Shown here: in pieces, positions 12,367 through 43,429 of the stretch
How the letters are laid out: every line of letters begins with the position of its first letter
How positions within the stretch are numbered: position 1 is the first letter of the stretch
Assembly: GCA_964558935.1 (NCBI GenBank)
Contig: CAZLFP010000003.1
Span: forward strand, 39,684 to 103,683
Length of the DNA: 64,000 nucleotides
Reading direction: 5' to 3'
Origin: an uncultured Gammaproteobacteria bacterium
GTDB taxonomy: Bacteria; Patescibacteriota; Patescibacteriia; 2-01-FULL-39-33
The notes under the pieces: model-generated
Seen by the model: the letters and a program-made list of their open reading frames with translations, nothing else
Told to the model about the DNA's origin: nothing
Databases searched by the model: none
Program-made: the position numbers and the translations under genes

Positions 12367-12369
12367 CCT

Positions 12370-22621: not shown

Positions 22622-22762
22622 ATTTGGTTAAAATCTCCAATTTATGGTATAATTATACTATCCATAACTGTGGATAGGTGATATTTTTATTAAACTTCTA
22701 CAATTGTCTAAACCCCACTAAACAAGCAGATTAATTTGGTTGTTTGGTTTGAAATAGATATT

Positions 22763-24025: not shown

Positions 24026-24034
24026 TCCAAAAAT

Positions 24035-27551: not shown

Positions 27552-27569
27552 ATCATAATCATTTAACAT

Positions 27570-27935: not shown

Positions 27936-27936
27936 C

Positions 27937-28302: not shown

Positions 28303-28304
28303 TT

Positions 28305-29996
28305 ATGACTTTATCCAGTTCCAAACTCAAATCTTTGTTGGTTGAGTCGGGTATTCTAACGCCGGCTGATTTTAAAAAAGCCGAGCAGTTGGCTAAATCA
28401 CAAAAGAAAACTCTAGCTTCAGCTTTAGTCGAGTTGGAATTGATCAAAGACGAACAACTGGGACAGTTAACGGCAGAAGAATGGGAAGTGCCATTTTTTA
28501 GCTCCAAGCGAGAAAAAATCGATGAAGAAGTTTTAAATCTGATTCCGGAGATTATGGCTCGCAGTCAAAAAGTCATTGCTTTTGACAGGACTCCTGACGC
28601 GGTTAAGGTCGCTATGGTTGATCCGGCTGATTTGGAAACCAAGCATATGATTGAAAAAAGGGTGGGTCAGGATATTGTTGTGCATTACATTACACCCTTG
28701 GATTTGGAAGAAGCTTTAACTACCTACAAGGCGGATTTAAGACAAGAGTTTCAGACGATTTTGGAAGAATTGAAAGACGAGTCATTGAGCCGAGAACAAA
28801 GAGACGGGATTGTGGTTAAAATGGTTGATGTGTTAATCGCCTATGGCTACCAAAACAGATCTTCTGATGTCCATATTGAACCCTATGCCAAAAAAATCGT
28901 GGTTCGGTTCCGAATTGACGGTATCATGCATGATGTTTTGGATATTCCCAAGCAGTTAAGCGAATATATTTTAACCAGAATTAAAATACTGGCAAAGTTA
29001 AGAACAGACGAGCATCGGGCGGCTCAAGACGGTAAGTTTCGTTTCGATACCGGCAAAGAGAAAATAGATATTCGTGTTTCCATTGTACCTGTGACTCAAG
29101 GTGAGAACGTAGTCATGCGTTTGCTGTCTTCCAGGGCCAGACAGTTTAATTTGCCTGATTTGGGCTTTTCCGACCGAGACTACAAATTGCTGTCCCAAGC
29201 GATTAAAAATCCGCATGGCATGGTGCTGGTAACCGGACCGACCGGTTCCGGTAAAACCACCACCTTGTATGCCATTTTAAAGATTTTAAATAAAAGGGAA
29301 GTTCATGTTTCCACCATTGAAGATCCGGTTGAATACGATATTGAAGGCGTGAGTCAGATTCAGGTTAATTCCAGAACCAATTTATCTTTTGCCAAAGGTT
29401 TAAGATCCATTGTACGTCAAGATCCGGATATTATCATGGTCGGTGAAATCAGAGATAAGGAAACAGCCAATATTGCGGTTAACGCCGCCATGACCGGTCA
29501 TTTGGTTTTGTCGACTTTGCACGCCAATGATACGGCCACTACCTTGCCCAGATTACTGGATATGGAAATCGAGCCTTTTTTGGTTTCTTCCACCGTCAAT
29601 ATTATTATTGCTCAAAGATTGGTTAGAAAGATTTGTCAAAACTGTCGGGTGTCATACAGCTTTAAGGAGCATGCCAAGGAACTGACAGCTCATCGTCAGC
29701 ATATAGAGAAAATATTCCAGGCGAGTGGTAAAAAGATAGAGTCAATTAGATTATACAAAGGTAAGGGTTGTAAGATTTGCGGTGGCACCGGCTATGTCGG
29801 CCGGATTGGTATTTTTGAAATCATGTTAATGAATGAAGAAATCAAAGAAATGGTCATGAAAAATGCTTCTTCCAACGAGATTATGGCTGTAGCAAAAGCC
29901 GAAGGCATGGTAACCATGTTTGAAGATGGTTTACTGAAAGTTAAACAGGGTTTGACGACCATTGAAGAAGTATTGCGGGTGGTTAAAACAGAATAA
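28305..29996 (+). CDS. Second GspE/PilB-family type IV filament assembly ATPase
   Basis: Walker A GPTGSGKTTT, Asp box EDPVEY, Walker B IIMVGEIRD, His box HLVLSTLHA and a tetracysteine motif CQNC...CKIC. All catalytic motifs are intact. Confidence 0.9.
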   Translation: MTLSSSKLKSLLVESGILTPADFKKAEQLAKSQKKTLASALVELELIKDEQLGQLTAEEWEVPFFSSKREKIDEEVLNLIPEIMARSQKVIAFDRTPDAVKVAMVDPADLETKHMIEKRVGQDIVVHYITPLDLEEALTTYKADLRQEFQTILEELKDESLSREQRDGIVVKMVDVLIAYGYQNRSSDVHIEPYAKKIVVRFRIDGIMHDVLDIPKQLSEYILTRIKILAKLRTDEHRAAQDGKFRFDTGKEKIDIRVSIVPVTQGENVVMRLLSSRARQFNLPDLGFSDRDYKLLSQAIKNPHGMVLVTGPTGSGKTTTLYAILKILNKREVHVSTIEDPVEYDIEGVSQIQVNSRTNLSFAKGLRSIVRQDPDIIMVGEIRDKETANIAVNAAMTGHLVLSTLHANDTATTLPRLLDMEIEPFLVSSTVNIIIAQRLVRKICQNCRVSYSFKEHAKELTAHRQHIEKIFQASGKKIESIRLYKGKGCKICGGTGYVGRIGIFEIMLMNEEIKEMVMKNASSNEIMAVAKAEGMVTMFEDGLLKVKQGLTTIEEVLRVVKTE

Positions 29997-30005
29997 ACAT
30001 ATATT

Positions 30006-31088
30006 ATGGCAGGTGGCAAAAGCATGTTTTCCGCAGATATTTCTATCGGCGGAGTTAATTTAACTCAAAAGGCGTTGTTTGCCAAACATTTGGCAGTCAT
30101 GCTTCGGTCCGGACTGACCATTACCGAAGCTTTGGGTATTGCGGCAGATTCTTCGACCGGTAAAATGAAGCGAGTCTCGGCCAATCTGCTTAAGTCTGTG
30201 GAAGCCGGCAATCCCTTATCTGAAGCCATGCAAAGATTCCCCAAGGTTTTTTCCGGTTTGTTTGTATCTGCTGTGTATTCGGGTGAAGAATCCGGTACTT
30301 TGGAGGAAAATTTGGAAAACATAGCGGAACAGTTGGAGAAGCAAAAAGAGCTCAGTGGCAAGATCAAGGGTGCGATGCTGTATCCCATTGTTGTCTTAGT
30401 GGCTGCCTTTATATTGGGCATGGCCATGGCTTTCTTGGTTTTACCCAAAATTGTGCCTTTGTTTGAAGGCTTGAGAGTGGAACTGCCTTTTACAACCAAA
30501 GCTTTAATTTGGTTTGCTAAAATTGTGCAAGAACAGGGCTTATGGTTGTTTGGCGGTATTATAGTCGGAGTCATCTTTTTAATCTGGTTATTTCGTCAAA
30601 AGTTTACCCGTCCCATTTCTCATGGCTTAGCTCTGCGCTTTCCGGTGGTAAAAAGCATCACTCGCAATGCTAATTTATCTGAATTCTGCCGAACTTTGGG
30701 CACCTTGCTCAAATCCGGTCTCAATATTGATGAAGCCCTGAGGATAACCGGAGAAAGCTTGAACAATTACCATTACAAACGAGCAATTAAAAGCGTTACC
30801 GGTAGGGTGTCTAAGGGGACAAAGCTGTCAGATAATCTAAAAGCGCATGGTGATTTATTTCCCAAACTGGTCACGAGAATGATTAGGGTGGGTGAAGAAT
30901 CCGGCAAATTGGATGAAACTTTAACCTATTTGGCCGATTTTTATGACACGGAAGTGGAAATTGCCACCAAAACCCTGTCCACTGCCATTGAACCTATATT
31001 GTTGATTGTGATTGGTTTAATCGTTGGTTTTTTAGCTTTGTCTATTATTACCCCTATTTACCAAATCACCGGCAGTGTTAAACGTTAA
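30006..31088 (+). CDS. Second GspF/PilC-family platform protein
   Basis: 360 aa with two GspF repeats and three TM segments. Directly follows the ATPase. Confidence 0.85.
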   Translation: MAGGKSMFSADISIGGVNLTQKALFAKHLAVMLRSGLTITEALGIAADSSTGKMKRVSANLLKSVEAGNPLSEAMQRFPKVFSGLFVSAVYSGEESGTLEENLENIAEQLEKQKELSGKIKGAMLYPIVVLVAAFILGMAMAFLVLPKIVPLFEGLRVELPFTTKALIWFAKIVQEQGLWLFGGIIVGVIFLIWLFRQKFTRPISHGLALRFPVVKSITRNANLSEFCRTLGTLLKSGLNIDEALRITGESLNNYHYKRAIKSVTGRVSKGTKLSDNLKAHGDLFPKLVTRMIRVGEESGKLDETLTYLADFYDTEVEIATKTLSTAIEPILLIVIGLIVGFLALSIITPIYQITGSVKR

Positions 31089-31533
31089 AGATATGGCTAA
31101 AGGCTTTTCCATGGTCGAACTCTTAATTGTAATCGGTATTCTACTGATTATTTTTTTAGCTGCCATCCCGGTGTATGGTAATTTTCAAGCGTTGGCCCAA
31201 TTAAACAATACCACCAGCCAAATGGTGCAGAATATTAGAACCGCTAAGGGTTTGGCTGGGGTGAGATATAATAATTCTAGGCACGGAGTTAAGTTTTTCA
31301 ACAACAGTTATACCGTGTATCAAGGAGCAACCTATGCCGGTAGAGATACGGATTATGACAGAGTTTTTGATTTGGATGATGTTTTTAATCTGACCACTAC
31401 TCTGGCTTCGGATGAGGTTAATTTTAGAAGAGGATCGGGTTTGCCGGACAATACCGGTACCATAACTCTAGTGCATGATGTAGAAGGTACTAAACAGATT
31501 ACGATCAATGAATGGGGACTGATAGAAGAATAG
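31075..31533 (+). CDS. Pseudopilin / minor pilin
   Basis: Prepilin signal MAKG^FSMVELLIVIGILLI (E at +5). An alternative start is the ATG at 31093. Confidence 0.7.
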   Translation: MLNVKDMAKGFSMVELLIVIGILLIIFLAAIPVYGNFQALAQLNNTTSQMVQNIRTAKGLAGVRYNNSRHGVKFFNNSYTVYQGATYAGRDTDYDRVFDLDDVFNLTTTLASDEVNFRRGSGLPDNTGTITLVHDVEGTKQITINEWGLIEE

Positions 31534-31598
31534 GAGTTGGGTGTTTAGAAATTAAGCCATTTAGTTTCTAAATCCTGACTCTTAATTCACAACTGCGG

Positions 31599-34500
31599 AT
31601 GAGATTTTCAGTTTTTAACAGGTTAGTTAAAAACCACAATGGACAAGGTTTGTTGGAGGTTATTTTGGCTTTGGCCATTTTTTCTTTTATTGCAGCTGCG
31701 ATGATGAGCATGGCTCTCGGCGGATTTCAAGCATTGGAAAGAGGAGGAGAACAAACAGAAGCTGAAGCTTTGGCTCAAGAAGGACTGGAGGCGGTCAAGG
31801 CCATTCAAGAAAGAGCCTGGAATGAAATGGAGTATGGAGTCAGTGCCGTCTCCAATGTTTCTTCCCAGTGGGAGTTTGTGGGAGAAGGTACGACTGAAAA
31901 TATTGGTCAGTTTACCCGAACCATTACCATCGCTGATGTCTGTCGTGACGCTTCAGATAATATTGACACCTGCCCCAGCAATTATACGGATGAACATACC
32001 AAAAGAGTGATTGTGGAAGTGACTTGGGATACTCTTCAAGGCAATATCAATACTGTGCGGCAAGAAGGCTATCTTACCAATTGGGATTCTACAGACTGGA
32101 CTCAAACCGATTGGGTGGGTGGAGACGGACAATCTATTTGGAGCGATACCACTCAGTATGACACCGGTAGTAATGTGGATGATACAATTGCCGGTCAAAT
32201 TTCTTTGGCTGCTATTTTAGGTGATGGCTGCGGTTTAAAAGTATGGCCTTTTACGACTGCCGGCAATTATACGTACGATAGTCAAGACATTGAAGTAACC
32301 GGAGGCAATGCTCAATTGGTTGGAACCGTTGTGAGTGGTTCAATACAGGATTCAGGTTTTAATAATACCTCAGACACTGATTACAATTGGCCTTTTACGA
32401 CTGCCGGCAATTATACTTATGATTCAAACAAAATAACCGTAACCGGTGGAGCGGCACAGTTGTATGAAATTTCTGAAGTATGCCAAGGTACACCGGATCC
32501 TTGTGCGGGCATTGGAGTGCAGGGTACTTGTACTTCTCAGGGGGGTTGTTCTTGGGATCCGGCGGATTGTTCCGGATCTCCAACTGCCTGCGGCAGTTTG
32601 CCGGAAGGGGATTGTTCAGCCTGTGGCTGTTCTTTAGTGCCTGGTAATTGTAGCAACAATGGTGCATGTGGAGATAATGGCGCTGAAGGAGCTTGCACTA
32701 ATTGCAGTTGTGCCACTTGCAGTTGGGATGCCACTAGTTGTCCTTATGTGGAAGCTTGGGATGGACAGAAATGGGTTAAGGAACATGAAGCTTTTCCTTA
32801 TGCAGTATTTAAATCTGTTGTTAACACAACATATGATTCTCTACCAAGTTTAGCGTGTATTGATGGACACGCTAGGGTTAGGATTTATGAGAGTTTGCCA
32901 GAAATAACATATTTACAATATTTTCAAGTCTTCGCTGCCAAACAAACAGGTGGTTATATTAAACCTGATGTTGAGGGTAGACCTAGGGTTATGAATAATT
33001 GGAATAGTCCAGATTTTTGTATTACCTCCTTGGGTCAGTCAGGTCAAGATTGTTTAAATATAATCAAGGATCATGATGAAGAATTTTTTGAACCAGAAAT
33101 AGATAAATCTAAAATAGACGAATGGATTGAGATGGAATTTAGAGATGTGAAAAACGATGAAGCTAAGCTGTACTTGGTAGCTAGAAACCAGCAATTGATA
33201 GCTATTTATTATCAGTACATAGCTCATATTTTGGGTCGTAAGCAGGCAGATCTTTTTTCTGAGGTTTCAGCTTGGCCGGGTTTCTATCAGTTGACGAATA
33301 ATTGGTGGACCAATAGTCTTAAGGTTCAGGTTGAAGTTTGGGATGGCAGTAATTGGCAAAGACAAGGAGTAATATCTGCTGGTTTTCATATGCCGGGTAG
33401 TGGAGCTGATGATTTCTTAGTTAGTTTAAAGAAGTTAGATGATTCAAACAATTTAAAGGTTAGAATTCGTTTTATGTCTGGTGCCTACGGAATTGATTAT
33501 ATTGCTCTAGATGATAGTCTTGATCAAGAACTAGATATCAAAGCAGTCAATCCTAAAGAAATATATGTTAATGGAAAATTATCTGATGATTATTTGGTTT
33601 CTATTGGATATAATGAATATGTTGAATTGGTTTATGATTGCAATCTTGATGAAGATTATTATTTTGGTATTGGTGGTTATTATAATATAGATTTTTATGA
33701 TTCTAGTCGTCAAAAAGATCCGATTTCTGCCTGGTCTGAATTAATGGATTTATTTACAGGTGGAAAAAAATACTTAATACGTACCGCAGTTGATAAAGGT
33801 TTGTATAAAAAAGATAATTGTAATCAAAACTATACCACTGCTGAATTGGCTGCTCAGGCTCAGTTAAGTCCCATTGCATACGTCATATATTTTGAAATAC
33901 TGTTAATTCTGGTTTCAGGTATACTATTTATCGTTGGATATGATAGAAGAAGGTTAGTTATTGGATTTACCATTGGCACGACAATTACCATTGTTTTGTT
34001 ATATGGTTTTACAGTTGTTATTGCCGGCGGAACATGTGGTGGCACCTTAAATTGTTCCGGGTGTAATGAAACAGCTTGTAATTTATGTGCGACATGTACC
34101 TGGAATGCAGGATCATGTAGTGGAACACCAAGTGTTTGTACTACGCATAGCACAGAAGATCAGTGCTCAGATTGCGGATGTTCATGGGATGAGGCCAATT
34201 GTTTTGGTACTTCAAGTGTTTGTTCAACGTACGCAACTGAAGGCAACTGTAACGGACAGCAAGGCTGTATTTGGTCTGGTGAGTATGCGACCACTTCTCC
34301 AAGCATATATCCAACTAGCTCATATTCTGCCCCCGGTGTTTTTAGCTGGGACAGTTTTTCGGCAACAACCACCGTTAGCGGTTCTCCATTTGTGGATGAT
34401 GAATCTTCAGAATTTAATGGTGCCAAGAGCAACACTCAGTATGACTCTGCCAATTATTGGTTGGAATTAACATCTGCGGGTCAAACTGCCGGCAGCGGTA

Positions 34501-37500
34501 CCTATACTTCACCCATCCGCAATGTCGGAGCCAATGCATCATGGGATAGTATCGCTTGGATTCCCACCATGCCTTTTGGTAAAGAACTGCCCAATGGCGG
34601 TTCGGCTGAAACAGCCTATTTAATGGGTAACGTTGATATGTCAGACAATGTACTCCTTTTGCATCTGAGTGCCACTTCCACTTCTATTATTGATTGGTCA
34701 GGCAATGGCTATAATGGAACATACAATGGAGCCTTAACTGGTCAGACTGGAAAATTGAATGGTGCTTTAGGCTTTGACGGTACAGATGATATTGTGACTT
34801 TTACGTATAATTTGAATAGTACCTTGGGTGGTACTGCCTCACTTGCATTCTGGATTAATACCACAGACACCGGTAATAACAATGTTGCTGATGCTCCGGC
34901 AGTGACCGGTGTTGAAGAGTCGGGTGGAGATGATGATGTTTTTTGGGGTTCTTTAAATGCTTCCGGTAAGTTTGTTATTCAGGCAGGTAATACAGCCGGT
35001 GCAGTTAGTAGTACGACTATTAATGACGGCAGTTGGCATCACGTTGTTATGACCAGAAACTCCACCACGGGAGAGGTTAAAATATATGTTGATGGTGTTT
35101 TAGAAGATACGGCTATCTCAGATTTGGGAGTCAAGGGCAATGCGTTCTATACGATTGGCCGTTTAACCGATACCGGATTTCCAGCTAATCATTACTATTT
35201 ACAAGGCACTTTAGATGAACTGGCCATCTTTGATACTGTGATTGATGAGGATATGGTAATGGAATTATATAAACGAGGAGCCTTGAGAATTAAGTATCAG
35301 GTAAAGTCATGTAATGATAGCGGTTGTGTCGGAGAGTCTTTTATTGGACCTGATGGTACGACCGGTGATTATTACGATGAAACAGATAATACTACCAATG
35401 GGTTGCCAAGTCTAACTTTAACCAATGTGTCAGATAATCCATACTTTCAATACCGAGCGACTTTGGAAACGGACGATACTGCTTTAACTCCAGAGCTCAG
35501 AAGTTTTACGACTAACTATACCGGAGGAGGTTTAGCTAATGTCACTTATCAGTTATCAGATGATGATGGCACTACTTGGTACTATTGGGGTGGCTCATCT
35601 TGGGATGTAGCCGGAGCGTCCAATTCAAGCACAGAAGCTACAGTTGATGCTAACATTAGTGACTTTAGTACCAGTACGGAACAAATTAAATTTAAAGCCT
35701 TTCTAAACAGTGAAGGCACTCAGAATGTTGAACTGGATAATGTCTTCCTAGGCTTTACTCCCGGTGGCTCACCTTGGACATATAGTGACTGGGATGCCGG
35801 TGGTGGAGAAGTTAATCCGGATGGAACAATAGATGCCAGCGGAGGCAATCCGGGTTCGTTTGCCAAAATAACCGTTCCCAATGGTCAAAATGATGAATTG
35901 GGTGGCTATTTTGAACAAGCTTTTACCACCACGGTAGATAATCCTTCCGGTACCGTTGATTTTGACTATAAGATGATTGCTTTTAATGCCACGGCTAATG
36001 TGTCGCAAATTAGAATATTTGTAGATACTTCATCTGGTGCACCAACTAATCAGGTAGGTAGTTCAATAGATGTGACTAGTGCTGGAAACTGGACAAGTGC
36101 CTCTCAAATAGATATTTCTTCTGACTTGGGAACTGCAGGAACATACTATTTAAAAGTTGCCTATTGGGTTGAAACTCCAGGCGGTGGCGGAGGTGGTCCT
36201 TTTGTGGTTGGTTTTGACAATGTGGATTTAAACTGGACTTTAACTACATATCCGGATGATGAACCAACGATACAGCCAACCGAATCGTATGAGGGTCCTG
36301 GTGTTAATTTCTGGTCATCTTTCTCTGAAACTGCCACCAAAGGAACAGGGGAAATCTACTACCAACTTTCAGATGACGATGGTTCCAATTGGTATTATTG
36401 GGGTGGTTCTTCATGGGTCAGTGCCGGAGCTTCGAACTATAACACGGCTAGCGTAATTAATTCCAATATTGGCACTTTTAGCACTTCAACCGAAACTATT
36501 TTATTTAAAGCTTTCTTAGACAGCGATGGCACACAACAAGTTCAATTGGATCAGGTTGCCATCTATTGTTCCAAATTATATGATTGGCCTTTTTCTACGC
36601 CGGGAGATTATACCTATGATGACCAGAAGATAGAGGTAACCGGTGGTCAAGCTCAATTGGTTGAGTCTGGAGGATATGTTATTAGATCGACTGAGTACGC
36701 AATAACAGACTATACTGGTGTTACAGGAGAAATTACACTGACCAATGATTTATCCTCCAATTATTTTGTTATGGTTAAAGGTAGTGATGGTGATGGTACT
36801 GATACTGGTAATAGGGGTCCAGATGAAAACTATTTTGCTTTAACTTCAGATCCGTTTGGCACCGGAGATTTAGCTGTCACAGGAGAAAATAATACACTAG
36901 GCTTCACTCGCGGAGGTAATGTAGACGGCTGGACCGGTGTGATTACAGTCGTGGAGTGTTTAAATAATTGTTCATCAGATGGTTTTGAACTGTTAGATGT
37001 GGCCAGGGTGACCCACAGTGGAACAACTTTAACCGGTACAGACACTTTTACTAGCGGTTGGGGATCGGATATAGACCAGGTCATGTTATTTGGCGGATAT
37101 GATGGAGCAGGCTGTAATACCGCAGATACAGATAATTCAGATCATAAGGTCTGTCATGCTCGCATTTGGCCGTCAGGAACTAACACTATTAATTGGCAGA
37201 GAAACGATACGGATGTCAGCAGCATGACAACTGCCTATTCAACTGTTATGGCTTTAAAGTGGGGTAGTAATTGGACAGTTCAAAGAGTCACAGTTTCCGG
37301 CAGTGCCGGTGGTGCTGGTGCTAATGCCACCGGTGAGTACAATACTGCTACAATTAATTCTGTAGCTAGAGATAATACCTGGGTATGGGGAACTGGTTGG
37401 ACTAATGACCAGGGTATTGGCGATGCGTCCGAGGGTACCTTAATCACTCTTGGTGATGGAGTTAATCAAAATACCAATGAAACCAGTGTTGCAGTTGGTC

Positions 37501-38498
37501 AGGAGTATTCAGATACCAGAGAATTTGAAGTTTATGCTTTGACCCATGATGATATTTCTGTGGATTATCGGTTTAAAGCAGATGGCAATGGTGCAGATTT
37601 AACTTATGATCAAACTGTTGATACAGCTGCCAGTTCTACAGCTAGAATGGCTTTGGGGTATAATACCTGTAATGGTACTGGTGATGCTTATCCTCGTCCC
37701 ATTTTTTCAGCCAGATATACTTCAAATACCAATATTCAACTACTCAGAAATCGTTGGAATCAAGCTTTTGTGGCCTGGACCCAGAGTATTGATTTCTCCG
37801 GTATTAATAAGCCAATTACCTATCCCTCGGATGATCCGACCATCCAACCCAGTGCTTTCTATAATCTAGGAGGTGTAAGTGAGTTAACTGCTTTTGAGGA
37901 AACAGCCAATAAAGATGGGGGAGAGATATATTATCAGTTATCCAATAATAACGGAGCCACCTGGTTATACTGGGGAGGATCAAATTGGACCACAGCTGGG
38001 GCTTCAGACTATAATACAGCCAGTGTGGTCAATACTAATATTGGAAGTTTTCCCACTTCAACCACTCAATTCCTATTCAAAGCTTTCTTGAGTGGTAATG
38101 GTTCTCAACAAGTGGCTTTAGATAATGTTAGAATCTTTTGGGGTGAAGATGCCGGAGGTGGAGGTTCAGTCGGTTATGAGACCAGTGGTTTTTTGGTGTC
38201 TTCAGCCTTGGACATGGGAGACGCATCTCCGGTGCAAGTCATTGAATGGAGCGAAGACAGACCGGCTGATACTGAAATCAAGCTACAAGTTAGAACTGCA
38301 CCGGACAGTGGTGGCAGTCCCGGTACTTGGACAGATTGGTTTGGAGAAACAGGATCTGGTACTTTTTTTACAACCACCAGTCCTACCTTAATACCAACCA
38401 CCATTAATGCTAACCAGTGGTTGCAGTACAGAGCCGAATTAAGTGGAGATGGCACGGTAACTCCTGTGTTATATGATATAAATCTTAATTACAAATAA
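31599..38498 (+). CDS. Giant (2,299-aa) modular pseudopilin-like surface protein: prepilin-type N-terminus, Cys-rich modules, an AT-rich insert with a TM hairpin, a LamG/ConA-like lectin domain and triplicated ~100-aa repeats
   Basis: A single uninterrupted ORF. The N-terminus NG^QGLLEVILALAIFSFIAAAMMSMAL has E at +5 followed by a hydrophobic alpha1 helix. A LamG-type motif set spans ~34870-35350 (LAFWINT...SWHHVVMTRN...IYVDGVL...LDELAIFDTV). Three YYQLSDDDG.WYYWGGSSW...FKAFL...G.Q.V.LD.V repeats. Embedded in the second filament locus. Confidence 0.85.
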   Translation: MRFSVFNRLVKNHNGQGLLEVILALAIFSFIAAAMMSMALGGFQALERGGEQTEAEALAQEGLEAVKAIQERAWNEMEYGVSAVSNVSSQWEFVGEGTTENIGQFTRTITIADVCRDASDNIDTCPSNYTDEHTKRVIVEVTWDTLQGNINTVRQEGYLTNWDSTDWTQTDWVGGDGQSIWSDTTQYDTGSNVDDTIAGQISLAAILGDGCGLKVWPFTTAGNYTYDSQDIEVTGGNAQLVGTVVSGSIQDSGFNNTSDTDYNWPFTTAGNYTYDSNKITVTGGAAQLYEISEVCQGTPDPCAGIGVQGTCTSQGGCSWDPADCSGSPTACGSLPEGDCSACGCSLVPGNCSNNGACGDNGAEGACTNCSCATCSWDATSCPYVEAWDGQKWVKEHEAFPYAVFKSVVNTTYDSLPSLACIDGHARVRIYESLPEITYLQYFQVFAAKQTGGYIKPDVEGRPRVMNNWNSPDFCITSLGQSGQDCLNIIKDHDEEFFEPEIDKSKIDEWIEMEFRDVKNDEAKLYLVARNQQLIAIYYQYIAHILGRKQADLFSEVSAWPGFYQLTNNWWTNSLKVQVEVWDGSNWQRQGVISAGFHMPGSGADDFLVSLKKLDDSNNLKVRIRFMSGAYGIDYIALDDSLDQELDIKAVNPKEIYVNGKLSDDYLVSIGYNEYVELVYDCNLDEDYYFGIGGYYNIDFYDSSRQKDPISAWSELMDLFTGGKKYLIRTAVDKGLYKKDNCNQNYTTAELAAQAQLSPIAYVIYFEILLILVSGILFIVGYDRRRLVIGFTIGTTITIVLLYGFTVVIAGGTCGGTLNCSGCNETACNLCATCTWNAGSCSGTPSVCTTHSTEDQCSDCGCSWDEANCFGTSSVCSTYATEGNCNGQQGCIWSGEYATTSPSIYPTSSYSAPGVFSWDSFSATTTVSGSPFVDDESSEFNGAKSNTQYDSANYWLELTSAGQTAGSGTYTSPIRNVGANASWDSIAWIPTMPFGKELPNGGSAETAYLMGNVDMSDNVLLLHLSATSTSIIDWSGNGYNGTYNGALTGQTGKLNGALGFDGTDDIVTFTYNLNSTLGGTASLAFWINTTDTGNNNVADAPAVTGVEESGGDDDVFWGSLNASGKFVIQAGNTAGAVSSTTINDGSWHHVVMTRNSTTGEVKIYVDGVLEDTAISDLGVKGNAFYTIGRLTDTGFPANHYYLQGTLDELAIFDTVIDEDMVMELYKRGALRIKYQVKSCNDSGCVGESFIGPDGTTGDYYDETDNTTNGLPSLTLTNVSDNPYFQYRATLETDDTALTPELRSFTTNYTGGGLANVTYQLSDDDGTTWYYWGGSSWDVAGASNSSTEATVDANISDFSTSTEQIKFKAFLNSEGTQNVELDNVFLGFTPGGSPWTYSDWDAGGGEVNPDGTIDASGGNPGSFAKITVPNGQNDELGGYFEQAFTTTVDNPSGTVDFDYKMIAFNATANVSQIRIFVDTSSGAPTNQVGSSIDVTSAGNWTSASQIDISSDLGTAGTYYLKVAYWVETPGGGGGGPFVVGFDNVDLNWTLTTYPDDEPTIQPTESYEGPGVNFWSSFSETATKGTGEIYYQLSDDDGSNWYYWGGSSWVSAGASNYNTASVINSNIGTFSTSTETILFKAFLDSDGTQQVQLDQVAIYCSKLYDWPFSTPGDYTYDDQKIEVTGGQAQLVESGGYVIRSTEYAITDYTGVTGEITLTNDLSSNYFVMVKGSDGDGTDTGNRGPDENYFALTSDPFGTGDLAVTGENNTLGFTRGGNVDGWTGVITVVECLNNCSSDGFELLDVARVTHSGTTLTGTDTFTSGWGSDIDQVMLFGGYDGAGCNTADTDNSDHKVCHARIWPSGTNTINWQRNDTDVSSMTTAYSTVMALKWGSNWTVQRVTVSGSAGGAGANATGEYNTATINSVARDNTWVWGTGWTNDQGIGDASEGTLITLGDGVNQNTNETSVAVGQEYSDTREFEVYALTHDDISVDYRFKADGNGADLTYDQTVDTAASSTARMALGYNTCNGTGDAYPRPIFSARYTSNTNIQLLRNRWNQAFVAWTQSIDFSGINKPITYPSDDPTIQPSAFYNLGGVSELTAFEETANKDGGEIYYQLSNNNGATWLYWGGSNWTTAGASDYNTASVVNTNIGSFPTSTTQFLFKAFLSGNGSQQVALDNVRIFWGEDAGGGGSVGYETSGFLVSSALDMGDASPVQVIEWSEDRPADTEIKLQVRTAPDSGGSPGTWTDWFGETGSGTFFTTTSPTLIPTTINANQWLQYRAELSGDGTVTPVLYDINLNYK

Positions 38499-38992
38499 TG
38501 AATAAAGGCTTTACTTTAGTTGAATTAATCATTTACATTGCCATTATTGGTCTCATGGTGGTGTCTTTTGCTACTTTTAGCATTGCCATCTCAGATTCAA
38601 GAGAAAAGTCATATGTCGTGTCAGAAGTCCATCACAATTTAAGGGATCCGTTTACCTTAATGACTAAGAGAGCCAGGTTTGCCAGTAGCGTAGTTACACC
38701 AACAGCCGGTAATTCTTCTACCACTCTGGAGTTAGACATGCCGGGAGCCAGTCCTAATTTAACCTTTAAAGTCATTGATGATATCTTAACTGTGCAAGAA
38801 GGAGTCGGTACACCCGTCGCTGTGACCAGTGACGAGGTTCAAGTCACTGAGTTAGCTTTTACCAATTATGCCAGTCCCGGCTTAAGATCCAATTTAAAAA
38901 TCGAGTATACGGTTGAATATGCTCATGAAGATGGAGATCCCATCTATACTTATGACAAAAGCATTGAAACCACAGTCAGAGTTAGAAAATAA
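38498..38992 (+). CDS. Pseudopilin / minor pilin
   Basis: Prepilin signal MNKG^FTLVELIIYIAIIGL. Its start overlaps the stop of the giant gene. Confidence 0.75.
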   Translation: MNKGFTLVELIIYIAIIGLMVVSFATFSIAISDSREKSYVVSEVHHNLRDPFTLMTKRARFASSVVTPTAGNSSTTLELDMPGASPNLTFKVIDDILTVQEGVGTPVAVTSDEVQVTELAFTNYASPGLRSNLKIEYTVEYAHEDGDPIYTYDKSIETTVRVRK

Positions 38993-38993
38993 T

Positions 38994-39401
38994 ATGAATA
39001 TTTTAAACAATCAAAAGGGAATAGCGGCTTTTCTGGTGATTGTGATGATTTCGGCCGTAGCTTTAATTATGGCATATTCAGCAGCTATCTTAGGTTTGGG
39101 TGAAATTGAAATGGGTTTTGACTCGCAACAAGGCGGACAGGCTTTTGCCCTTGCCGATGGTTGTATTGAAGAAGCCATGCGCAGATTGAGATTGGACACT
39201 GATTACACAGGCAGTTCTTTGAGTTTTGGAGCCAATTCCTGTATAATTAGTGTAACCGGAGCTGGCAGTAATCGTACTATATATACTACCAGTACTGTTG
39301 GTGAATATTATAAAAAGATTGAAGCTCAAGTTTCTTTTACAGACAGTCCGACAACTGGTGTAGTTTTAAGTTTAGACAGTTGGGAAGAAAGCGATCAATA
39401 G
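38994..39401 (+). CDS. PilX-like minor pilin
   Basis: N-terminus MNILNNQKGIAAFLVIVMISAVALIMAYSAAILGLGEI is PilX/GspK-like. Start chosen at 38994, because the track start at 38913 would overlap the previous gene by 80 nt. Confidence 0.55.
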   Translation: MNILNNQKGIAAFLVIVMISAVALIMAYSAAILGLGEIEMGFDSQQGGQAFALADGCIEEAMRRLRLDTDYTGSSLSFGANSCIISVTGAGSNRTIYTTSTVGEYYKKIEAQVSFTDSPTTGVVLSLDSWEESDQ

Positions 39402-39406
39402 CAGAC

Positions 39407-40750
39407 ATGTTACAATACGGCCAACAATCTGTAGGTATCGATATTTCAGATCAAACCATTGAGGTGGCTGAAATTCTTAGTGGTTTTCGCAAAAAAATCA
39501 CGAGCTTGGGTCAAAGAAAATTACCAACCGGTTTGGTGGAAAGGGGTAGAATAAAAGATGTCAAAGCTTTAACCAAGGAATTGGATGCCTGTTTCAAACA
39601 AGCCAAACCCAAACCCATTAATTATCGACGAGCTGTTTTTTCTTTGCCGGAAAGCCAAGTTTATACGCATGATTTTATCCTTAAGGAAGCTAACAAAAAG
39701 AAATGGGAGGATCTGATCAAACAAGAAGCACTGGCTAATTTTCCCATTCCTGAGAATGATTTGGTTTATGCCTATACCATACTCACTCACAACAAGCAAG
39801 GAGCCACGGTTTTGTTGGCAGCCAGCAGTTACCAAGTGATTAATGAATGGCGAGCATTCTTTCGACAAGCTAAAATCCGAGTTGATTATTTTGCGGTTGA
39901 AGCTTTGGCTATCTTCAGAGGTTTGTTTGTCGGTGGTGTTAAAGAGCCGGTGGCTATAATTGATTTGGGAGCTTATACAACTTTAATCTCTATCTTTGAC
40001 AAACATGGTTTGGAATTCACTTATTCCGTGAATACAGCCGGCAACAGATTGAACAGTGAAATTGCCAAAGCTCTTAATATAGGTCAGGATCAAGCTGAAA
40101 AAATGAAGATTAAGCTGGGTCTTACAGATCCGGACAGCCAGGTTTTCAATGTTATTTTAAAGACTTTGGAGAAAATTACAAGAGGTATTGATGTGTCTGT
40201 GGATTACTACCAGAACAAGTCAGGTCAACAAATAAAAAAAGCGGTGTTAATTGGGGGTACGAGCCGATTAAAAGGCTTATTGGAATACTTTCAGAGTAAT
40301 TTAGAGTATGAGGTACAATTGGGTTCATCCAAATTGTTTAAAACCCATAAACTGGACTTGGGCTATATTGAAGCCATTGGTTTGGCCAATATTGGATTAA
40401 AAGAAAAATGGTTGAAAAAAGACCCGGTCTTTGTATTAAAAGATGTTAAAAAACCGTCAAAAAAGTCTAAATCTAGCGGAAAAAAAGCGGGAAAAAAGAC
40501 TCGGGATGTTGAGTCGATGTCTAGCGAGTATTATACTCTTGAGGATCAGGAAATTGAATTTGAAGCGAAAAAATTGCGCCGACAACAGATTACTTTTTTA
40601 ATTATTGTTATCATTGGAGCGATCGCTATCAGTTTGGCTTTTTGGTACCAGAATGAACAGAAGAAAAAGAAAGCCCAGGAATATGAACAGCAACTGGAAA
40701 CTTTTTTGGAAGATCGGCAGCGTGAGATTCAGTACAATATTGAACAGTAG
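39407..40750 (+). CDS. PilM-like actin-fold assembly protein fused to a Lys-rich linker and a C-terminal TM anchor (PilM-PilN-like fusion)
   Basis: N-terminus SVGIDISDQTIEVAEI matches the PilM fold. C-terminus has KKPSKKSKSSGKKAGKK followed by a TM (ITFLIIVIIGAIAISLAFWY) and a coiled coil. No separate pilN or pilO in this locus. Confidence 0.75.
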   Translation: MLQYGQQSVGIDISDQTIEVAEILSGFRKKITSLGQRKLPTGLVERGRIKDVKALTKELDACFKQAKPKPINYRRAVFSLPESQVYTHDFILKEANKKKWEDLIKQEALANFPIPENDLVYAYTILTHNKQGATVLLAASSYQVINEWRAFFRQAKIRVDYFAVEALAIFRGLFVGGVKEPVAIIDLGAYTTLISIFDKHGLEFTYSVNTAGNRLNSEIAKALNIGQDQAEKMKIKLGLTDPDSQVFNVILKTLEKITRGIDVSVDYYQNKSGQQIKKAVLIGGTSRLKGLLEYFQSNLEYEVQLGSSKLFKTHKLDLGYIEAIGLANIGLKEKWLKKDPVFVLKDVKKPSKKSKSSGKKAGKKTRDVESMSSEYYTLEDQEIEFEAKKLRRQQITFLIIVIIGAIAISLAFWYQNEQKKKKAQEYEQQLETFLEDRQREIQYNIEQ

Positions 40751-40831
40751 TGGATAATTTAGGACATTTGCTTGTATTTTAAACTGTGTTATAATATAAT
40801 TAACATAAATATTAGAAATAAGTTTGCTACT

Positions 40832-41323
40832 ATGAAAAAAACTGGTTTTACCTTAATTGAATTATTAATTGTGATTGCCATTATTGCAATTATCGCAGCT
40901 GTGGCTTTTGTGGCTTTGGATCCTCTAACACGTTTTAGAGACTCAAGAGATTCAGCCAGATGGTCTGATGTAACGGCTATGTTATCTGCGATTGTGGTTG
41001 ATCAGGTTGACAATGGAGGTAATTATCTCTGGTCGATTCAAAATGCGACAACGGCGACAAATGTTATGATCAGCAATGCTACCACTACCACTGGTTGTAA
41101 TGCCACTGCTTGTGATACAGCCGTAACCAGTACAGCTGCTTGCATTAACATGCAAGGCTTGGTGGATGAGGGTTATCTGGGCACTATGCCAGTTAGTCCG
41201 AACGGCAGCGGCAGCTGGGATTCCGCTTTAACCGGTTATTATTTGACCAAGAACACGAATGGCTCGATTACAATCACGGCATGCGAAGCTGAGAATTCCG
41301 GTACAATCAGTTTGACAAGGTAA
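40832..41323 (+). CDS. Type IV pilin paralog 1 (Thr/Ala/Asn-rich globular domain, three Cys in the C-terminal half)
   Basis: Prepilin signal MKKTG^FTLIELLIVIAIIAII. Start chosen at 40832, not the track start at 40772. Preceded by an AT-rich promoter-like region. Confidence 0.85.
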   Translation: MKKTGFTLIELLIVIAIIAIIAAVAFVALDPLTRFRDSRDSARWSDVTAMLSAIVVDQVDNGGNYLWSIQNATTATNVMISNATTTTGCNATACDTAVTSTAACINMQGLVDEGYLGTMPVSPNGSGSWDSALTGYYLTKNTNGSITITACEAENSGTISLTR

Positions 41324-41339
41324 GAAATTTATAATCTAA

Positions 41340-41852
41340 ATGCGGAGGCTTAAGGATCAAAGAGGTTTAACTTTAATAGAGCTGCTAGTCGTTGTAACGA
41401 TATTGGGTATACTAGCAGCTGCTATTTTTGTGGCTTTAAATCCGGTTAAATTGTTTAAAGACTCCAGAGACGTGGTCAGAAGGCAGGATGTGGAAACGAT
41501 TCTAACGGCAATTGGTTTGTACCAGGTTAACAGCGGAGGTATTAATCCGACCGAGATTCAGGGTTTAACTGCGGGTCGAGTGTATATGATCACCGACGGA
41601 GCCCAAGCCACCGGCTGTGATGATTACGGAACCAATGGCTGTGATACCGAGGTATACGGTGATAGTTATTGTGCTGATTTGGATGAATTGGTGGATAATG
41701 GCTATTTGGGCGATATTCCGATCAGTCCCACCGGCACGACCACTTGGTCTGAAGACATGACCGGTTACACGATTGAAAAATCATCCAACGGCAACATCTT
41801 CATTCGAGCCTGTGAATCTGAAAGCGGAGATGAAATTTGGGTAGTAAGATAA
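41340..41852 (+). CDS. Type IV pilin paralog 2
   Basis: Prepilin signal QRG^LTLIELLVVVTILGILAAAIFVALNP. Shares DSRD, GLYQV and C-terminal GYLGDIPISPTGTTTWSEDMTGYTIEK blocks with paralog 3. Confidence 0.85.
   Translation: MRRLKDQRGLTLIELLVVVTILGILAAAIFVALNPVKLFKDSRDVVRRQDVETILTAIGLYQVNSGGINPTEIQGLTAGRVYMITDGAQATGCDDYGTNGCDTEVYGDSYCADLDELVDNGYLGDIPISPTGTTTWSEDMTGYTIEKSSNGNIFIRACESESGDEIWVVR
41703..41770 (+). repeat. 68-nt exact repeat (copy 1) shared by pilin paralogs 2 and 3
   Basis: TATTTGGGCGATATTCCGATCAGTCCCACCGGCACGACCACTTGGTCTGAAGACATGACCGGTTACAC is identical to 42199-42266. Confidence 0.9.
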
Positions 41853-41853
41853 T

Positions 41854-43425: not shown

Positions 43426-43429
43426 GCAT

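What the first reader, a model, noticed from the sequence alone, without database searches (positions are those of the whole stretch)
31599..38498. Giant 2,299-aa modular pseudopilin: prepilin-type N-terminus fused to Cys-rich modules, a LamG/ConA-like lectin domain and repeat domains
The ORF starts with a prepilin-like leader plus hydrophobic alpha1 helix (NG^QGLLEVILALAIFSFIAAAMMSMAL, E at +5). It runs uninterrupted for 6.9 kb. It contains two Cys-dense modules with recurring CS.CGCSWD spacing at aa ~290-380 and ~815-880. It has a Laminin-G/ConA-like domain (WHHVVMT..., IYVDGV..., LDELAIFDT...). It also has at least three ~100-aa repeats and three copies of WPF(T/S)T(A/P)G(N/D)YTYD...IEVTGG(N/Q)AQLV. 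Modular pilins with grafted lectin or vWA modules are known at ~50-100 kDa in Gram-positive T4P. A ~250-kDa version would be an extreme case. If it is incorporated in or at the tip of the filament, it is a candidate adhesin for host-cell or surface glycan binding.
Basis: partly seen in the sequence, partly recalled or inferred. Interest (0 to 1): 0.85.

Follow-up and report, generated by a model that had tools for sequence, protein, structure and literature searches.

The report
Giant minor pilin with membrane hairpin
This 2,299-residue gene is a real, unusually large minor subunit of a type IV pilus in an ultrasmall (Patescibacteria-type) bacterium, carrying sugar-binding modules and, unexpectedly for a pilin, a conserved pair of internal membrane-spanning helices that should tie it to the cell's own membrane.

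Summary
ORF 31599-38498 (+) is uninterrupted (2,299 aa, 247.6 kDa). It has a G15|Q16 prepilin motif with Glu at +5, two Cys-rich modules, a Laminin_G_3 lectin domain and the reported repeats.

The N-terminal 170 aa model as a GspI/XcpV-like pilin fold. The gene occupies the second slot of a four-gene minor-pilin block between PilB/PilC and PilM. A prepilin peptidase is encoded in the same window.

The protein is not a singleton. A Patescibacteria family shares the pilin module and a C-terminal domain, and ranges from about 200 to 2,299 aa. Modular lectin-bearing minor pilins are already described.

The same cassette also exists as stand-alone ~750-aa membrane proteins in CPR bacteria, and embedded in large proteins from two archaeal MAGs. 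The pilin-cassette fusion recurs in at least three other genomes at the same operon position.

TM2 has the anatomy of an internal signal peptide. The protein is probably tethered to its own membrane, or cleaved there, rather than carried freely on a pilus tip. I rate it a new variant of a known kind, of moderate-to-high interest.

The parts
31599..31643 (+). Class III (prepilin-type) leader peptide, aa 1-15, ending in Gly15
   Evidence: Sequence MRFSVFNRLVKNHNG|Q. The motif is conserved in homologues. The database copy P0001 starts later, at an internal TTG at 31665 that follows a GGAGG created by the L-E-V codons.
31644..32108 (+). Pilin module, aa 16-170: alpha1 helix (aa 18-72) with Glu at +5, plus an antiparallel beta-sheet (aa 81-160). 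GspI/PilV class.
32109..32474 (+). Conserved connector (W.QTDW.GG.GQ..WSD) and two WPF..YTYD..IEVTGG.AQL units (aa 216-245 and 264-292)
   Evidence: Invariant columns W162-Y187 in alignment A2. Internal repeats.
32481..32738 (+). Cys-rich module 1: three ~28-aa Cys-rich units (aa 295-380)
   Evidence: The same units precede domain X in all stand-alone cassette proteins. AF2 confidence is low here.
32739..33854 (+). Domain X (aa 381-752): an unannotated ~370-aa extracellular domain of beta-sandwiches with a helical insert. It includes a CBM32/CBM35/discoidin-like fold.
33873..34025 (+). Transmembrane hairpin: TM1 aa 759-780, cytoplasmic loop YDRRR aa 781-785, TM2 aa 786-809 ending in V-I-A, followed by GGT-C
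   Evidence: KD peaks 2.61 and 2.01. Modelled as two helices. A hairpin follows domain X in 18 of 18 close relatives. In 20 of 20 sequences the loop is K/R-rich and TM2 ends with a small-x-small motif.
34035..34283 (+). Cys-rich module 2: three Cys-rich units (aa 813-895)
   Evidence: Homologous to module 1 (E 1e-9 to 1e-11). Present after the hairpin in all cassette proteins.
34284..35522 (+). Beta-rich region aa 896-1308 containing the Laminin_G_3 / ConA-like lectin domain (aa ~1060-1218, nt 34776-35252)
   Evidence: PF13385 62 bits vs 27.6. 49% identical to P0002 s1500-1888. aa 1231-1307 resemble the C-terminal domain.
35523..36674 (+). Repeat copy 1 (to aa 1384), a ~165-aa 'GGNPG..Y' beta domain (aa 1385-1549, unannotated), repeat copy 2 (aa 1551-1655), and the third WPF unit (aa 1663-1692)
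   Evidence: No Pfam, NCBIfam or PDB sequence hit.
36675..37805 (+). Unannotated ~380-aa domain (aa 1693-2069), 60% identical to the Magasanikbacteria homologue P0002
   Evidence: No family or PDB hit.
37818..38498 (+). Repeat copy 3 (aa 2075-2179), the family-wide C-terminal ~107-aa domain (aa 2193-2299) and the stop codon
   Evidence: The C-terminal domain is shared by P0002-P0016, P0018 and P0020, and follows the cassette in archaeal P0017.
28305..31533 (+). Upstream operon partners: PilB ATPase (28305-29996), PilC platform (30006-31088), and a short minor pilin that is GspH/ComGD-like (31075-31533)
   Evidence: T2SSE 427 bits, T2SSF 211 bits, N_methyl 24.4 bits. Weak GspH/ComGD/ComGE hits.
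38498..42348 (+). Downstream operon partners: a minor pilin (38498-38992, weak GspH/J-type hits); a pilin-like ORF without Glu+5 (probable start 38994, end 39401, GspK/PilX-like by position); PilM with a C-terminal TM (39380-40750); three major-pilin paralogues (40772-42348)
9795..10577 (+). Prepilin peptidase PilD, the enzyme needed to process the leader. It lies in the window's other T4P cluster.
   Evidence: A24_N_bact 112.6 bits plus Peptidase_A24 47.6 bits.

Best explanation
The ORF encodes the GspI/PilV-class core minor pilin of a Patescibacteria type IV pilus operon, with the gene order PilB-PilC-[H-like]-[this gene]-[J-like]-[K-like]-PilM-major pilins. It has grown to 248 kDa through grafted extracellular modules: a LamG lectin, several unannotated beta domains and three ~105-aa repeats.

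In this subfamily a ~600-aa cassette is inserted between the pilin module and the adhesive modules. Its order is three Cys-rich units, a CBM32-like domain X, a TM hairpin, then three more Cys-rich units.

Proposed mechanism:
1. The precursor is inserted by Sec with three membrane segments. Alpha1 runs N-in. TM1 acts as a stop-transfer anchor. TM2 re-starts translocation and has the n/h/c anatomy and V-x-A end of a signal peptide.
2. PilD removes the 15-residue leader.
3. The pilin module joins the H/J/K partners in the complex that primes pilus assembly.
4. The lectin-type modules bind glycans on the host or partner cell.
5. The hairpin's Arg-rich loop sits in the cytoplasm, so the pilin module, and the distal arm unless signal peptidase cuts after TM2, stays tethered to the bacterium's own membrane. 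The 1,490-aa adhesive arm is therefore presented from the membrane at the pilus base, or released there, rather than riding out on a long filament.

What is shown: ORF continuity, pilin motif, predicted pilin fold, synteny, PilD gene, LamG domain, hairpin conservation, and recurrence of the fusion.

What is inferred: PilD cleavage, membership of the priming complex, glycan binding, topology, tethering, and possible cleavage at TM2.
For: - Operon context. PilB, PilC, three other short pilin-like ORFs, PilM and three pilins surround the gene. The synteny is identical around the homologues in L005, L007/L008, L009 and L010.
- A PilD gene is in the window.
- Lectin module: PF13385 at 62 bits.
- The hairpin is real and conserved. 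KD peaks are 2.6 and 2.0. All 18 close domain-X relatives have it. In 20 of 20 sequences the loop is K/R-rich and TM2 ends in a small-x-small motif, mirroring the N-terminal signal-peptide ends of the stand-alone proteins.
- The fusion is not an artefact. Three further genomes carry colinear pilin-cassette ORFs at 45-49% identity, and two of them are complete at 1,740 and 1,238 aa. There are no long DNA repeats at the junctions.
- Published precedent exists for lectin-type minor pilins as adhesins in Saccharibacteria and S. sanguinis (PMC11623550, PMC9934059, PMC8179133).
Against: - Nothing here is experimental. PilD cleavage, topology and localisation are all inferred.
- The N_methyl score is borderline, and the GspI model is below its cut-off (23.8 vs 44.35 bits).
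- Residue +1 is Gln, not Phe or Met.
- The H/J/K assignments of the neighbouring ORFs rest on weak HMM hits and gene order.
- A priming minor pilin that cannot leave the membrane would seem to block pilus extension. Yet the architecture is conserved, so the tethering model may be missing a step, such as cleavage before TM1 or mechanical extraction.
- Family members without the cassette (for example P0002) carry the same distal modules directly on the pilin. That fits tip display better than base display.
- The CBM-like fold of domain X matches only ~110 of its ~370 residues.
Confidence: 0.6

Rival explanations
1. One reading: the whole ~246-kDa processed protein is incorporated at the pilus tip and carried away from the cell as a giant tip adhesin. 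In this model the internal hydrophobic hairpin is either pulled out of the membrane by the assembly motor together with alpha1, or never stably inserts.
For: The pilin module, operon position and lectin modules are as in the best explanation. Cassette-free relatives such as P0002 have the adhesive modules directly on the pilin. Modular pilins are thought to be tip-exposed (PMC8179133). From general knowledge, not tested here: type IV pilus motors generate forces of the order needed to extract helix pairs from membranes.
Against: Two ~22-24-residue hydrophobic helices with an Arg/Lys-rich connecting loop are conserved in 20 of 20 sequences. That set includes stand-alone proteins that have no pilin and no motor, so the hairpin evolved as an ordinary membrane anchor. 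Moving a DRRR loop across the bilayer is costly. Pilins normally neutralise even their single N-terminal charge.
Confidence: 0.17
2. Polyprotein-like processing: TM2 is an internal signal peptide that signal peptidase I cleaves after V-I-A809 (or nearby). This would give a membrane-anchored pilin/domain-X fragment (aa 16-~809) and a separate secreted ~1,490-aa Cys-stalk-plus-lectin adhesin. That adhesin is then either released or held non-covalently or by disulfides. This is a sub-variant of the best explanation, singled out because it changes what the mature products are.
For: In all 20 sequences TM2 has a K/R n-region and a 22-24-residue hydrophobic stretch. It ends with V/Y/T-x-A/G/S 1-4 residues before the first Cys of the next module. 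The N-terminal signal peptides of the stand-alone proteins have the same layout and length (V-x-A then C[ST]GTP).
Against: No cleavage data exist. The hydrophobic stretch is long enough to act as an uncleaved anchor. Small residues at helix ends are common. Cleavage would uncouple the adhesin from the pilin, which makes conservation of the fusion harder to explain.
Confidence: 0.15
3. Not a pilin at all: the N-terminus is a plain signal anchor, and the protein is a polytopic membrane-anchored surface adhesin that merely lies within a pilus operon.
For: The PF07963 score is marginal (17.7 bits in the whole-protein scan). NCBI's gene call starts inside alpha1 (P0001). Residue +1 is an unusual Gln.
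Against: Gly-1 and Glu+5 are conserved across divergent homologues. The predicted fold matches GspI-class pilins rather than a bare anchor. The same module occurs as ordinary 200-370-aa minor pilins, one of which JGI names PilV. The gene holds a fixed position inside the minor-pilin block in five genomes.
Confidence: 0.05
4. Artefact: a chimeric assembly, or a sequencing error, fused a pilin gene to an unrelated membrane-protein gene.
For: The sequence is metagenome-derived. The cassette core has lower GC3 (0.23-0.25) than the rest of the gene (0.33-0.37). The cassette exists as a separate gene elsewhere.
Against: The frame is kept across both junctions. There is no DNA repeat longer than 18 nt at the junctions. 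The same colinear fusion is found in three other assemblies at 45-49% identity and in the same operon slot. Analogous in-frame embedding occurs in archaeal P0017 and in P0044, P0046 and P0047.
Confidence: 0.03

Closest known systems
Streptococcus sanguinis modular minor pilins PilC (ConA-like lectin module) and PilB (vWA module)
   Same: [quoted passage not shown] PilC's module belongs to the same ConA-like/LamG superfamily. The organisms are monoderm-type (PMC8179133, PMC9934059).
   Different: Those proteins are ~50 kDa and bimodular, with only the alpha1 membrane segment. This one is 248 kDa with more than ten modules and an internal TM hairpin. There is no detectable sequence homology outside the shared domain superfamily.
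Saccharibacteria (TM7x) minor pilins PilX1/PilX2
   Same: Patescibacteria T4P minor pilins with large lectin-like C-terminal domains (jelly-roll, beta-propeller), proposed as tip adhesins for host glycans. Those cells also have two T4P systems (PMC11623550), and this window also holds two clusters.
   Different: PilX1 and PilX2 are much smaller and were reported to lack a predicted PilD signal. No internal TM hairpin or Cys-rich stalk is described for them. Homology to this protein was not tested here.
T2SS minor pseudopilin GspI / XcpV / EpsI (and T4aP PilV)
   Different: GspI is ~100-130 aa with no extension. The curated HMM cut-off is not reached. Formation of a tip complex is not shown.
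Large minor pilins with extra domains: ETEC CofB, V. cholerae TcpB, Thermus ComZ; and the non-pilin tip adhesin PilY1/PilC
   Same: All attach bulky ligand-binding domains to the priming/tip complex of a type IV filament (as reviewed in PMC8179133).
   Different: None has an internal membrane hairpin. PilY1 has a C-terminal beta-propeller, which was not detected here. The sizes are 50-120 kDa.
Stand-alone hairpin-cassette proteins of CPR bacteria (P0032-P0042, e.g. Candidatus Dojkabacteria), and the copy embedded in a Woesearchaeota 2,877-aa protein (P0017)
   Same: Identical cassette order: Cys-rich units, domain X, TM hairpin, Cys-rich units. Identity is 43-51% over domain X.
   Different: They start with an ordinary signal peptide, are not in T4P operons, and are all annotated as hypothetical. 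Their function is unknown.

Membership tests
Type IV pilin / class III signal peptide proteins (PF07963, IPR012902) | A short, mostly polar leader ending in Gly, followed by ~20 hydrophobic residues with Glu at +5 | tested here: met
   MRFSVFNRLVKNHNG|QGLLEVILALAIFSFIAAAMM. G|Q[ST]L[LI]E is conserved in homologues. Residue +1 is Gln, which is atypical.
Type IV pilin / class III signal peptide proteins (PF07963, IPR012902) | Match to the N_methyl HMM at or above the curated threshold | tested here: met
   21.4 bits vs 21.2 on aa 1-170 alone, so only just met. The whole-protein scan gave 17.7 bits, below threshold.
Type IV pilin / class III signal peptide proteins (PF07963, IPR012902) | Lollipop fold: a ~50-residue alpha1 helix packed on an antiparallel beta-sheet | tested here: met
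Type IV pilin / class III signal peptide proteins (PF07963, IPR012902) | Leader cleaved, and the new N-terminus methylated, by prepilin peptidase | not testable with these tools
   A PilD gene is present at 9795-10577.
Type IV pilin / class III signal peptide proteins (PF07963, IPR012902) | Alpha1N is the only membrane anchor, so the subunit can be extracted into the filament (a typical property rather than a formal definition) | tested here: not met
   There are two further TM segments at aa 759-780 and 786-809. Cassette-free family members have only the N-terminal TM.
Core minor pilin GspI / PilV class | Match to TIGR01707 (GspI) or TIGR02523 (PilV) above the curated cut-off | tested here: not met
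   GspI is the best hit, but at 23.8 bits vs 44.35. PilV scores 10 bits.
Core minor pilin GspI / PilV class | Structural similarity to GspI, and a position in an H-I-J-K-type minor-pilin gene block next to the assembly genes | tested here: inconclusive
Modular pilins sensu Raynaud et al. 2021 (PMC8179133) | An N-terminal pilin module plus at least one additional domain that is not specific to T4P biology | tested here: met
   Pilin module plus PF13385 Laminin_G_3 at 62 bits.
Concanavalin A-like lectin/glucanase (Laminin_G_3, PF13385) | HMM match above the gathering threshold | tested here: met
   62.0 bits vs 27.6 at aa ~1060-1218. Actual sugar binding was not tested.
PilY1/PilC tip adhesins | C-terminal PilY1-type beta-propeller (IPR008707), and no pilin N-terminus | tested here: not met
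   No such Pfam hit on the whole protein or on segments. The protein does have a pilin N-terminus.
Hairpin-cassette proteins (unnamed; defined here) | Full-length domain X, immediately followed by two TM helices with a K/R loop, and flanked on both sides by Cys-rich units | tested here: met
   621 bits to the domain-X profile. The hairpin is present in 18 of 18 close relatives, including this protein. The flanking units are shown.

The most novel reading that the evidence does not exclude
The cassette (Cys-rich stalks, CBM32-like domain, TM hairpin) is a mobile, self-contained 'membrane module' exchanged between episymbiotic CPR bacteria and DPANN archaea. When it is built into the pilus-priming minor pilin it gives the pilus a new mechanical function. 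One possibility is a leash that converts the filament into a short membrane-tethered piston or anchor. A more radical one is a hydrophobic hairpin that the assembly motor pulls out and delivers at the pilus tip, where it inserts into the host cell membrane like a harpoon.
Probability: 0.08. Interest if true: 0.9.

Novelty: new variant of a known kind. Interest (0 to 1): 0.62.

Why it matters
Type IV pili are the best-supported host-contact organelles of Patescibacteria, a large group of ultrasmall bacteria whose cultivated members all live attached to other microbes. How their pili recognise hosts is still largely open.

This locus matters for four reasons:
1. The conserved GspI/PilV-class minor pilin of these operons can carry well over 1,000 residues of lectin-type modules. 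That is far beyond the 860-residue 'most extreme' modular pilin recorded in the 2021 InterPro survey. Such proteins are under-annotated because gene callers tend to clip the leader.
2. A subfamily carries a conserved internal membrane hairpin. Current models of pilin extraction and tip display do not accommodate this, which makes a concrete question directly testable: can a priming pilin be membrane-tethered or processed like a polyprotein?
3. A widespread domain (941 cluster representatives) has no annotation at all.
4. The hairpin cassette is shared between CPR bacteria and archaeal MAGs (Woesearchaeota and one unclassified). This points to exchange of surface modules between two lineages with similar lifestyles.

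Tried and rejected
- Contig lookup for the database copy P0001 found nothing, so the organism could not be named. The species-representative genome scan did not return the window's own genome. The closest full-length relative is from Candidatus Magasanikbacteria.
- The whole-protein Pfam and NCBIfam scans under-reported domains. Rescanning by segment recovered Laminin_G_3 and N_methyl but nothing for the Cys-rich units, domain X, the ~165-aa and ~380-aa domains or the C-terminal domain.
- Sequence searches against PDB with the family profile and with two distal segments were negative.
Foldseek against PDB on the cassette gave only weak partial jelly-roll matches.
- Assembly chimera was considered because of the GC3 drop in the cassette core. 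It was rejected because of the junction analysis and the three independent colinear orthologues.
- 'Recent insertion' was also dropped, because those orthologues are only 45-49% identical. The GC3 difference remains unexplained.
- Rough NJ trees, without support values, did not show the hairpin-bearing pilins as one clade by pilin module, and paired them only loosely by domain X. No claim is made about one fusion event versus several.
- Literature searches for pilins with a transmembrane hairpin or an internal signal peptide returned nothing in the held library.
- PilY1-type identity was rejected, since no beta-propeller was detected.
Full report
**1. The observation**

ORF 31599..38498 on the + strand is 2,299 codons with no internal stop. 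Its computed mass is 247.6 kDa and its pI is 4.07.

The N-terminus reads MRFSVFNRLVKNHNG|QGLLEVILALAIFSFIAAAMMSMAL. Gly is at position 15, Glu falls at +5 after it, and a strongly hydrophobic stretch follows (Kyte-Doolittle 2.47).

Of the 47 cysteines, most lie in two blocks, aa 295-381 and 813-890. Each block resolves into three ~28-aa units of the form C-x-G-[ST]-x2-3-C-x8-9-C-...-C-[ST]-W. The two blocks are homologous to each other.

The LamG call is correct. The whole-protein scan gave only sub-threshold hits. When the segment aa 896-1308 is scanned alone, PF13385 Laminin_G_3 scores 62 bits against a cut-off of 27.6, at aa ~1060-1218.

The three ~105-aa repeats (aa ~1280-1384, 1551-1655, 2075-2179) and the three WPF..YTYD..IEVTGG.AQL units (216, 264, 1663) are also real.

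These are aa 759-780 and 786-809, separated by YDRRR.

**2. The protein is a pilin**

Four independent lines of evidence agree.

(a) Motif. Homologues recovered from public data conserve G|Q-[ST]-L-[LI]-E at the same place. The isolated N-terminus just reaches the Pfam N_methyl threshold, at 21.4 vs 21.2 bits.

- many other pilins

The best NCBIfam hit is GspI, but it is below cut-off at 23.8 vs 44.35 bits.

(c) Context. The gene follows PilB (28305-29996), PilC (30006-31088) and a 152-aa pilin (31075-31533). It precedes:
- a 164-aa pilin (38498-38992)
- a pilin-like ORF lacking Glu+5, with a probable true start at 38994
- PilM (39380-40750)
- three ~170-aa pilin paralogues

This is the arrangement of a four-gene minor-pilin block, with the giant gene in second position. 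The same order surrounds the homologues in a Candidatus Magasanikbacteria genome (L005) and in three other MAGs (L007/L008, L009, L010).

(d) Processing enzyme. A prepilin peptidase gene (A24_N_bact plus Peptidase_A24) lies at 9795-10577, within a second T4P cluster in the same window.

The database copy of this protein (P0001) starts 22 residues later, at an internal TTG that follows a GGAGG. That GGAGG is itself created by the conserved Leu-Glu-Val codons. Several homologues are clipped in the same way (P0004, P0007, P0013, P0015, P0020). This helps to explain why the family is poorly annotated.

**3. It is one member of a family, not a singleton**

Proteins P0002-P0016, P0018 and P0020 are 1,300-2,009 aa long. 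They share the first ~200-290 residues and the last ~107 residues with this ORF, carry different mixtures of modules in between, and have only the N-terminal TM segment. One is named by NCBI as a Patescibacteria-group protein with a prepilin-type N-terminal cleavage/methylation domain, and another as a Magasanikbacteria hypothetical protein.

The bare pilin module also occurs as ordinary 200-370-aa proteins, one of which JGI calls PilV. The family therefore runs from plain minor pilins to giants, and this ORF is the longest found here.

Published work already establishes three relevant points:
- Modular pilins are widespread. A survey found more than 1,200 proteins in 264 architectures, with CPR examples prominent and an 860-residue Falkowbacteria protein as the extreme case (PMC8179133).
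- S. sanguinis PilC carries a ConA-like lectin module (PMC9934059).
- The Saccharibacteria minor pilins PilX1 and PilX2 have lectin-like domains and act in host binding (PMC11623550).

The general idea of a lectin-bearing modular minor pilin in a CPR bacterium is thus known. The scale is not documented in those surveys.

**4. The cassette**

Residues ~340-863 have no counterpart in the cassette-free pilins. In the first search their only match was one other protein, a 2,877-aa Candidatus Woesearchaeota protein (P0017; 41% identity over 524 aa, E 1.8e-126). That protein also has a TM pair at the equivalent place.

A dedicated search found stand-alone proteins of 690-965 aa (P0032-P0042; the named members of one cluster are Candidatus Dojkabacteria). 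Their order is fixed: signal peptide, three or four Cys-rich units, a ~370-aa domain ('domain X'), two TM helices, three Cys-rich units, and a ~180-aa C-terminal domain. They are not in pilus operons.

An exhaustive profile search with domain X alone returned 941 cluster representatives at E<=1e-3, and 310 at E<=1e-10. They fall into two tiers:
- All 18 close relatives (above 300 bits) have the full domain followed by a TM hairpin. Four of them carry it inside larger proteins (P0017, P0044, P0046, P0047).
- Distant relatives have only the beta-rich core (profile positions 1 to ~325), usually at the extreme C-terminus of secreted proteins, with no TM segment.

Neither Pfam nor NCBIfam has a model for domain X.

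**5. The fusion is real and conserved**

There is no DNA repeat longer than 18 nt around the junctions.

P0043 comes from assembly GCA_021106995.1 and is cut by the end of its contig. It is colinear with this ORF over aa 12-928 at 44.6% identity, through pilin module, Cys-rich units, domain X, hairpin and Cys-rich units into the first 105-aa repeat. It sits after two response regulators, PilB, PilC and a short pilin.

Two further species-representative genomes carry complete colinear ORFs of 1,740 and 1,238 aa (L009, L010; 45-49% identity). Both lie between PilB/PilC and PilM. Both have TM segments at the N-terminus and directly after domain X, and both end in the family's C-terminal domain.

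So at least four genomes encode a GspI-class minor pilin with this hairpin cassette. The cassette core has lower GC3 (0.23-0.25) than the rest of the gene (0.33-0.37). Given the divergence among the orthologues, this cannot be read as a recent insertion, and I leave it unexplained. Rough distance trees do not decide between one fusion event and several.

**6. How it probably works**

In all 20 hairpin sequences examined, the connecting loop is short and rich in Lys/Arg (YDRRR here). By the positive-inside rule this places the loop in the cytoplasm and both flanks outside.

TM2 has three features in every case:
- It is preceded by that basic stretch.
- It has a 22-24-residue hydrophobic run.
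- It ends with a V/Y/T-x-A/G/S motif 1-4 residues before the first Cys of the next module (V-I-A-GGT-C here).

The genuine N-terminal signal peptides of the stand-alone proteins have the same layout and similar length (for example ..V-Q-A-S-CSGTP). The simplest reading is that TM1 is a stop-transfer anchor and TM2 is an internal signal sequence that re-starts translocation. Whether signal peptidase cuts after TM2 cannot be decided here.

Either way, the pilin module and domain X remain attached to a membrane hairpin. My best explanation (confidence 0.6) has these steps:
- PilD processes the protein.
- Its pilin module joins the three neighbouring minor pilins in the complex that primes assembly.
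- Its LamG and other beta-rich modules bind glycans of a partner cell.
- Unlike its cassette-free relatives, it stays tethered to its own membrane, or is split there. The 1,490-aa adhesive arm is therefore presented at the cell surface near the pilus base, or released, rather than being carried out on a long filament.

The weak point is that a tethered priming pilin should hinder extension. The conservation of this architecture says some compatible mechanism exists, and I cannot identify it from sequence.

Rivals:
- Full tip display with mechanical extraction of the hairpin: 0.17.
- The cleavage variant: 0.15.
- A plain signal anchor: 0.05.
- An artefact: 0.03.

**7. Comparison, novelty and score**

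By function and architecture, the closest described systems are the modular minor pilins of S. sanguinis and Saccharibacteria. The N-terminal module is closest to GspI/PilV. Membership of the type IV pilin class is supported by motif, threshold-level HMM score, predicted fold and context. Cleavage is untestable here, and the usual 'single anchor' property is not met. Membership of GspI by curated HMM is not met. PilY1-type identity is excluded.

I found no description of a pilin with an internal TM hairpin or internal signal peptide in the held literature, although that library is incomplete.

I therefore rate this as a new variant of a known kind. The pilin-plus-lectin concept is known. What is new:
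- the conserved hairpin cassette within a core minor pilin
- its sharing with archaeal MAGs (one Woesearchaeota, one unclassified)
- the unannotated 941-representative domain family
- the size, 2.7 times the published 'extreme' modular pilin

Interest is 0.62. A pilus specialist would be surprised by the hairpin and could test it directly, but everything beyond sequence and predicted structure is inference.

Noticed in passing
window 666-13200 and 27570-42348: The window holds two separate type IV pilus clusters. Cluster A: PilM 666-1763, PilB-like 4316-6043, PilT-like 6451-7521, PilC 7540-8748, a pilin at 8892-9314, PilD 9795-10577, and pilins at 10585-12366. Cluster B contains the giant gene. 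Only cluster A has a PilT-like ATPase and PilD. This recalls the two T4P systems reported in Saccharibacteria (PMC11623550).
   Followed up: partly
window 22736-28302: Directly upstream of PilB lie a PAS-domain protein, a small membrane protein, a 1,012-aa multi-TM sensor histidine kinase and two single-domain response regulators. One or two response-regulator genes also precede PilB in the homologous loci L005 and L007, which suggests a conserved regulatory unit for this pilus.
   Followed up: partly
window 43343-44611, 45763-46602, 17306-17932: Thioredoxin-fold proteins lie next to the operon. One is a 422-aa membrane protein with an N-terminal CPHC motif and no Pfam hit. Another is a 279-aa protein with CQDC and CQEC motifs (Thioredoxin_3). 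A third, further upstream, is Thioredoxin_7-like. They may be extracytoplasmic disulfide machinery for the Cys-rich pilin, as in the MdbA/VKOR idea for CPR pilins (10.1101/335083).
   Followed up: no
window 38913-39401: This mechanically listed ORF overlaps the previous gene by 80 nt. The likely true start is the ATG at 38994, giving MNILNNQKG|IAAFLVIV... That is a pilin-like N-terminus without Glu+5, as expected for a GspK/PilX-type fourth minor pilin. It has no Pfam or NCBIfam hit.
   Followed up: partly
window 31599-31667; P0001, P0004, P0007, P0013, P0015, P0020: Gene callers repeatedly start these pilin genes inside alpha1, which removes the leader and the Gly/Glu motif. In this window the internal TTG at 31665 follows a GGAGG produced by the conserved Leu-Glu-Val codons. 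This systematic clipping probably hides many CPR pilins from motif-based surveys.
   Followed up: partly
window 32739-33854; P0041-P0187: Domain X is a large unannotated family, with 941 representatives at 50% clustering and E<=1e-3. The core (~325 aa) is usually the extreme C-terminal domain of secreted proteins of 500-6,000 aa. Several of those proteins also have pilin-like N-termini (P0074, P0096, P0097, P0100, P0116). It is a candidate for a new domain family definition.
   Followed up: partly
L006/L016 (Candidatus Woesearchaeota, JAFGDD010000018.1) and L018 (archaeon Bin_444, WJKC01000052.1): The complete hairpin cassette is embedded in large archaeal surface proteins. In L018 it follows FG-GAP repeats. 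In P0017 it is directly followed by a copy of the pilin family's C-terminal domain (q2193-2296, 34%). This suggests exchange of surface modules between CPR bacteria and DPANN-type archaea.
   Followed up: partly
window 34284-35522 versus 38175-38495: aa 1231-1307 resemble the second half of the C-terminal domain (aa 2227-2298; 37.5% identity, E 2e-9). By eye, aa ~940-985 resemble its first half. The LamG domain may therefore be inserted into a loop of an internal copy of that C-terminal domain.
   Followed up: no
window 32739-34034: The cassette core (domain X plus hairpin) has GC3 of 0.23-0.25, against 0.33-0.37 in the rest of the gene. Yet orthologous fusions in other genomes are only 45-49% identical, so the fusion is old. 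The compositional difference is unexplained.
   Followed up: partly
L009, L010, L012, L015: MAG records titled 'uncultured Gammaproteobacteria bacterium' or 'Christensenellaceae bacterium' carry loci whose genes are closest to Patescibacteria proteins: the giant pilin operon or the stand-alone cassette protein. These record titles are probably taxonomic mislabels.
   Followed up: no
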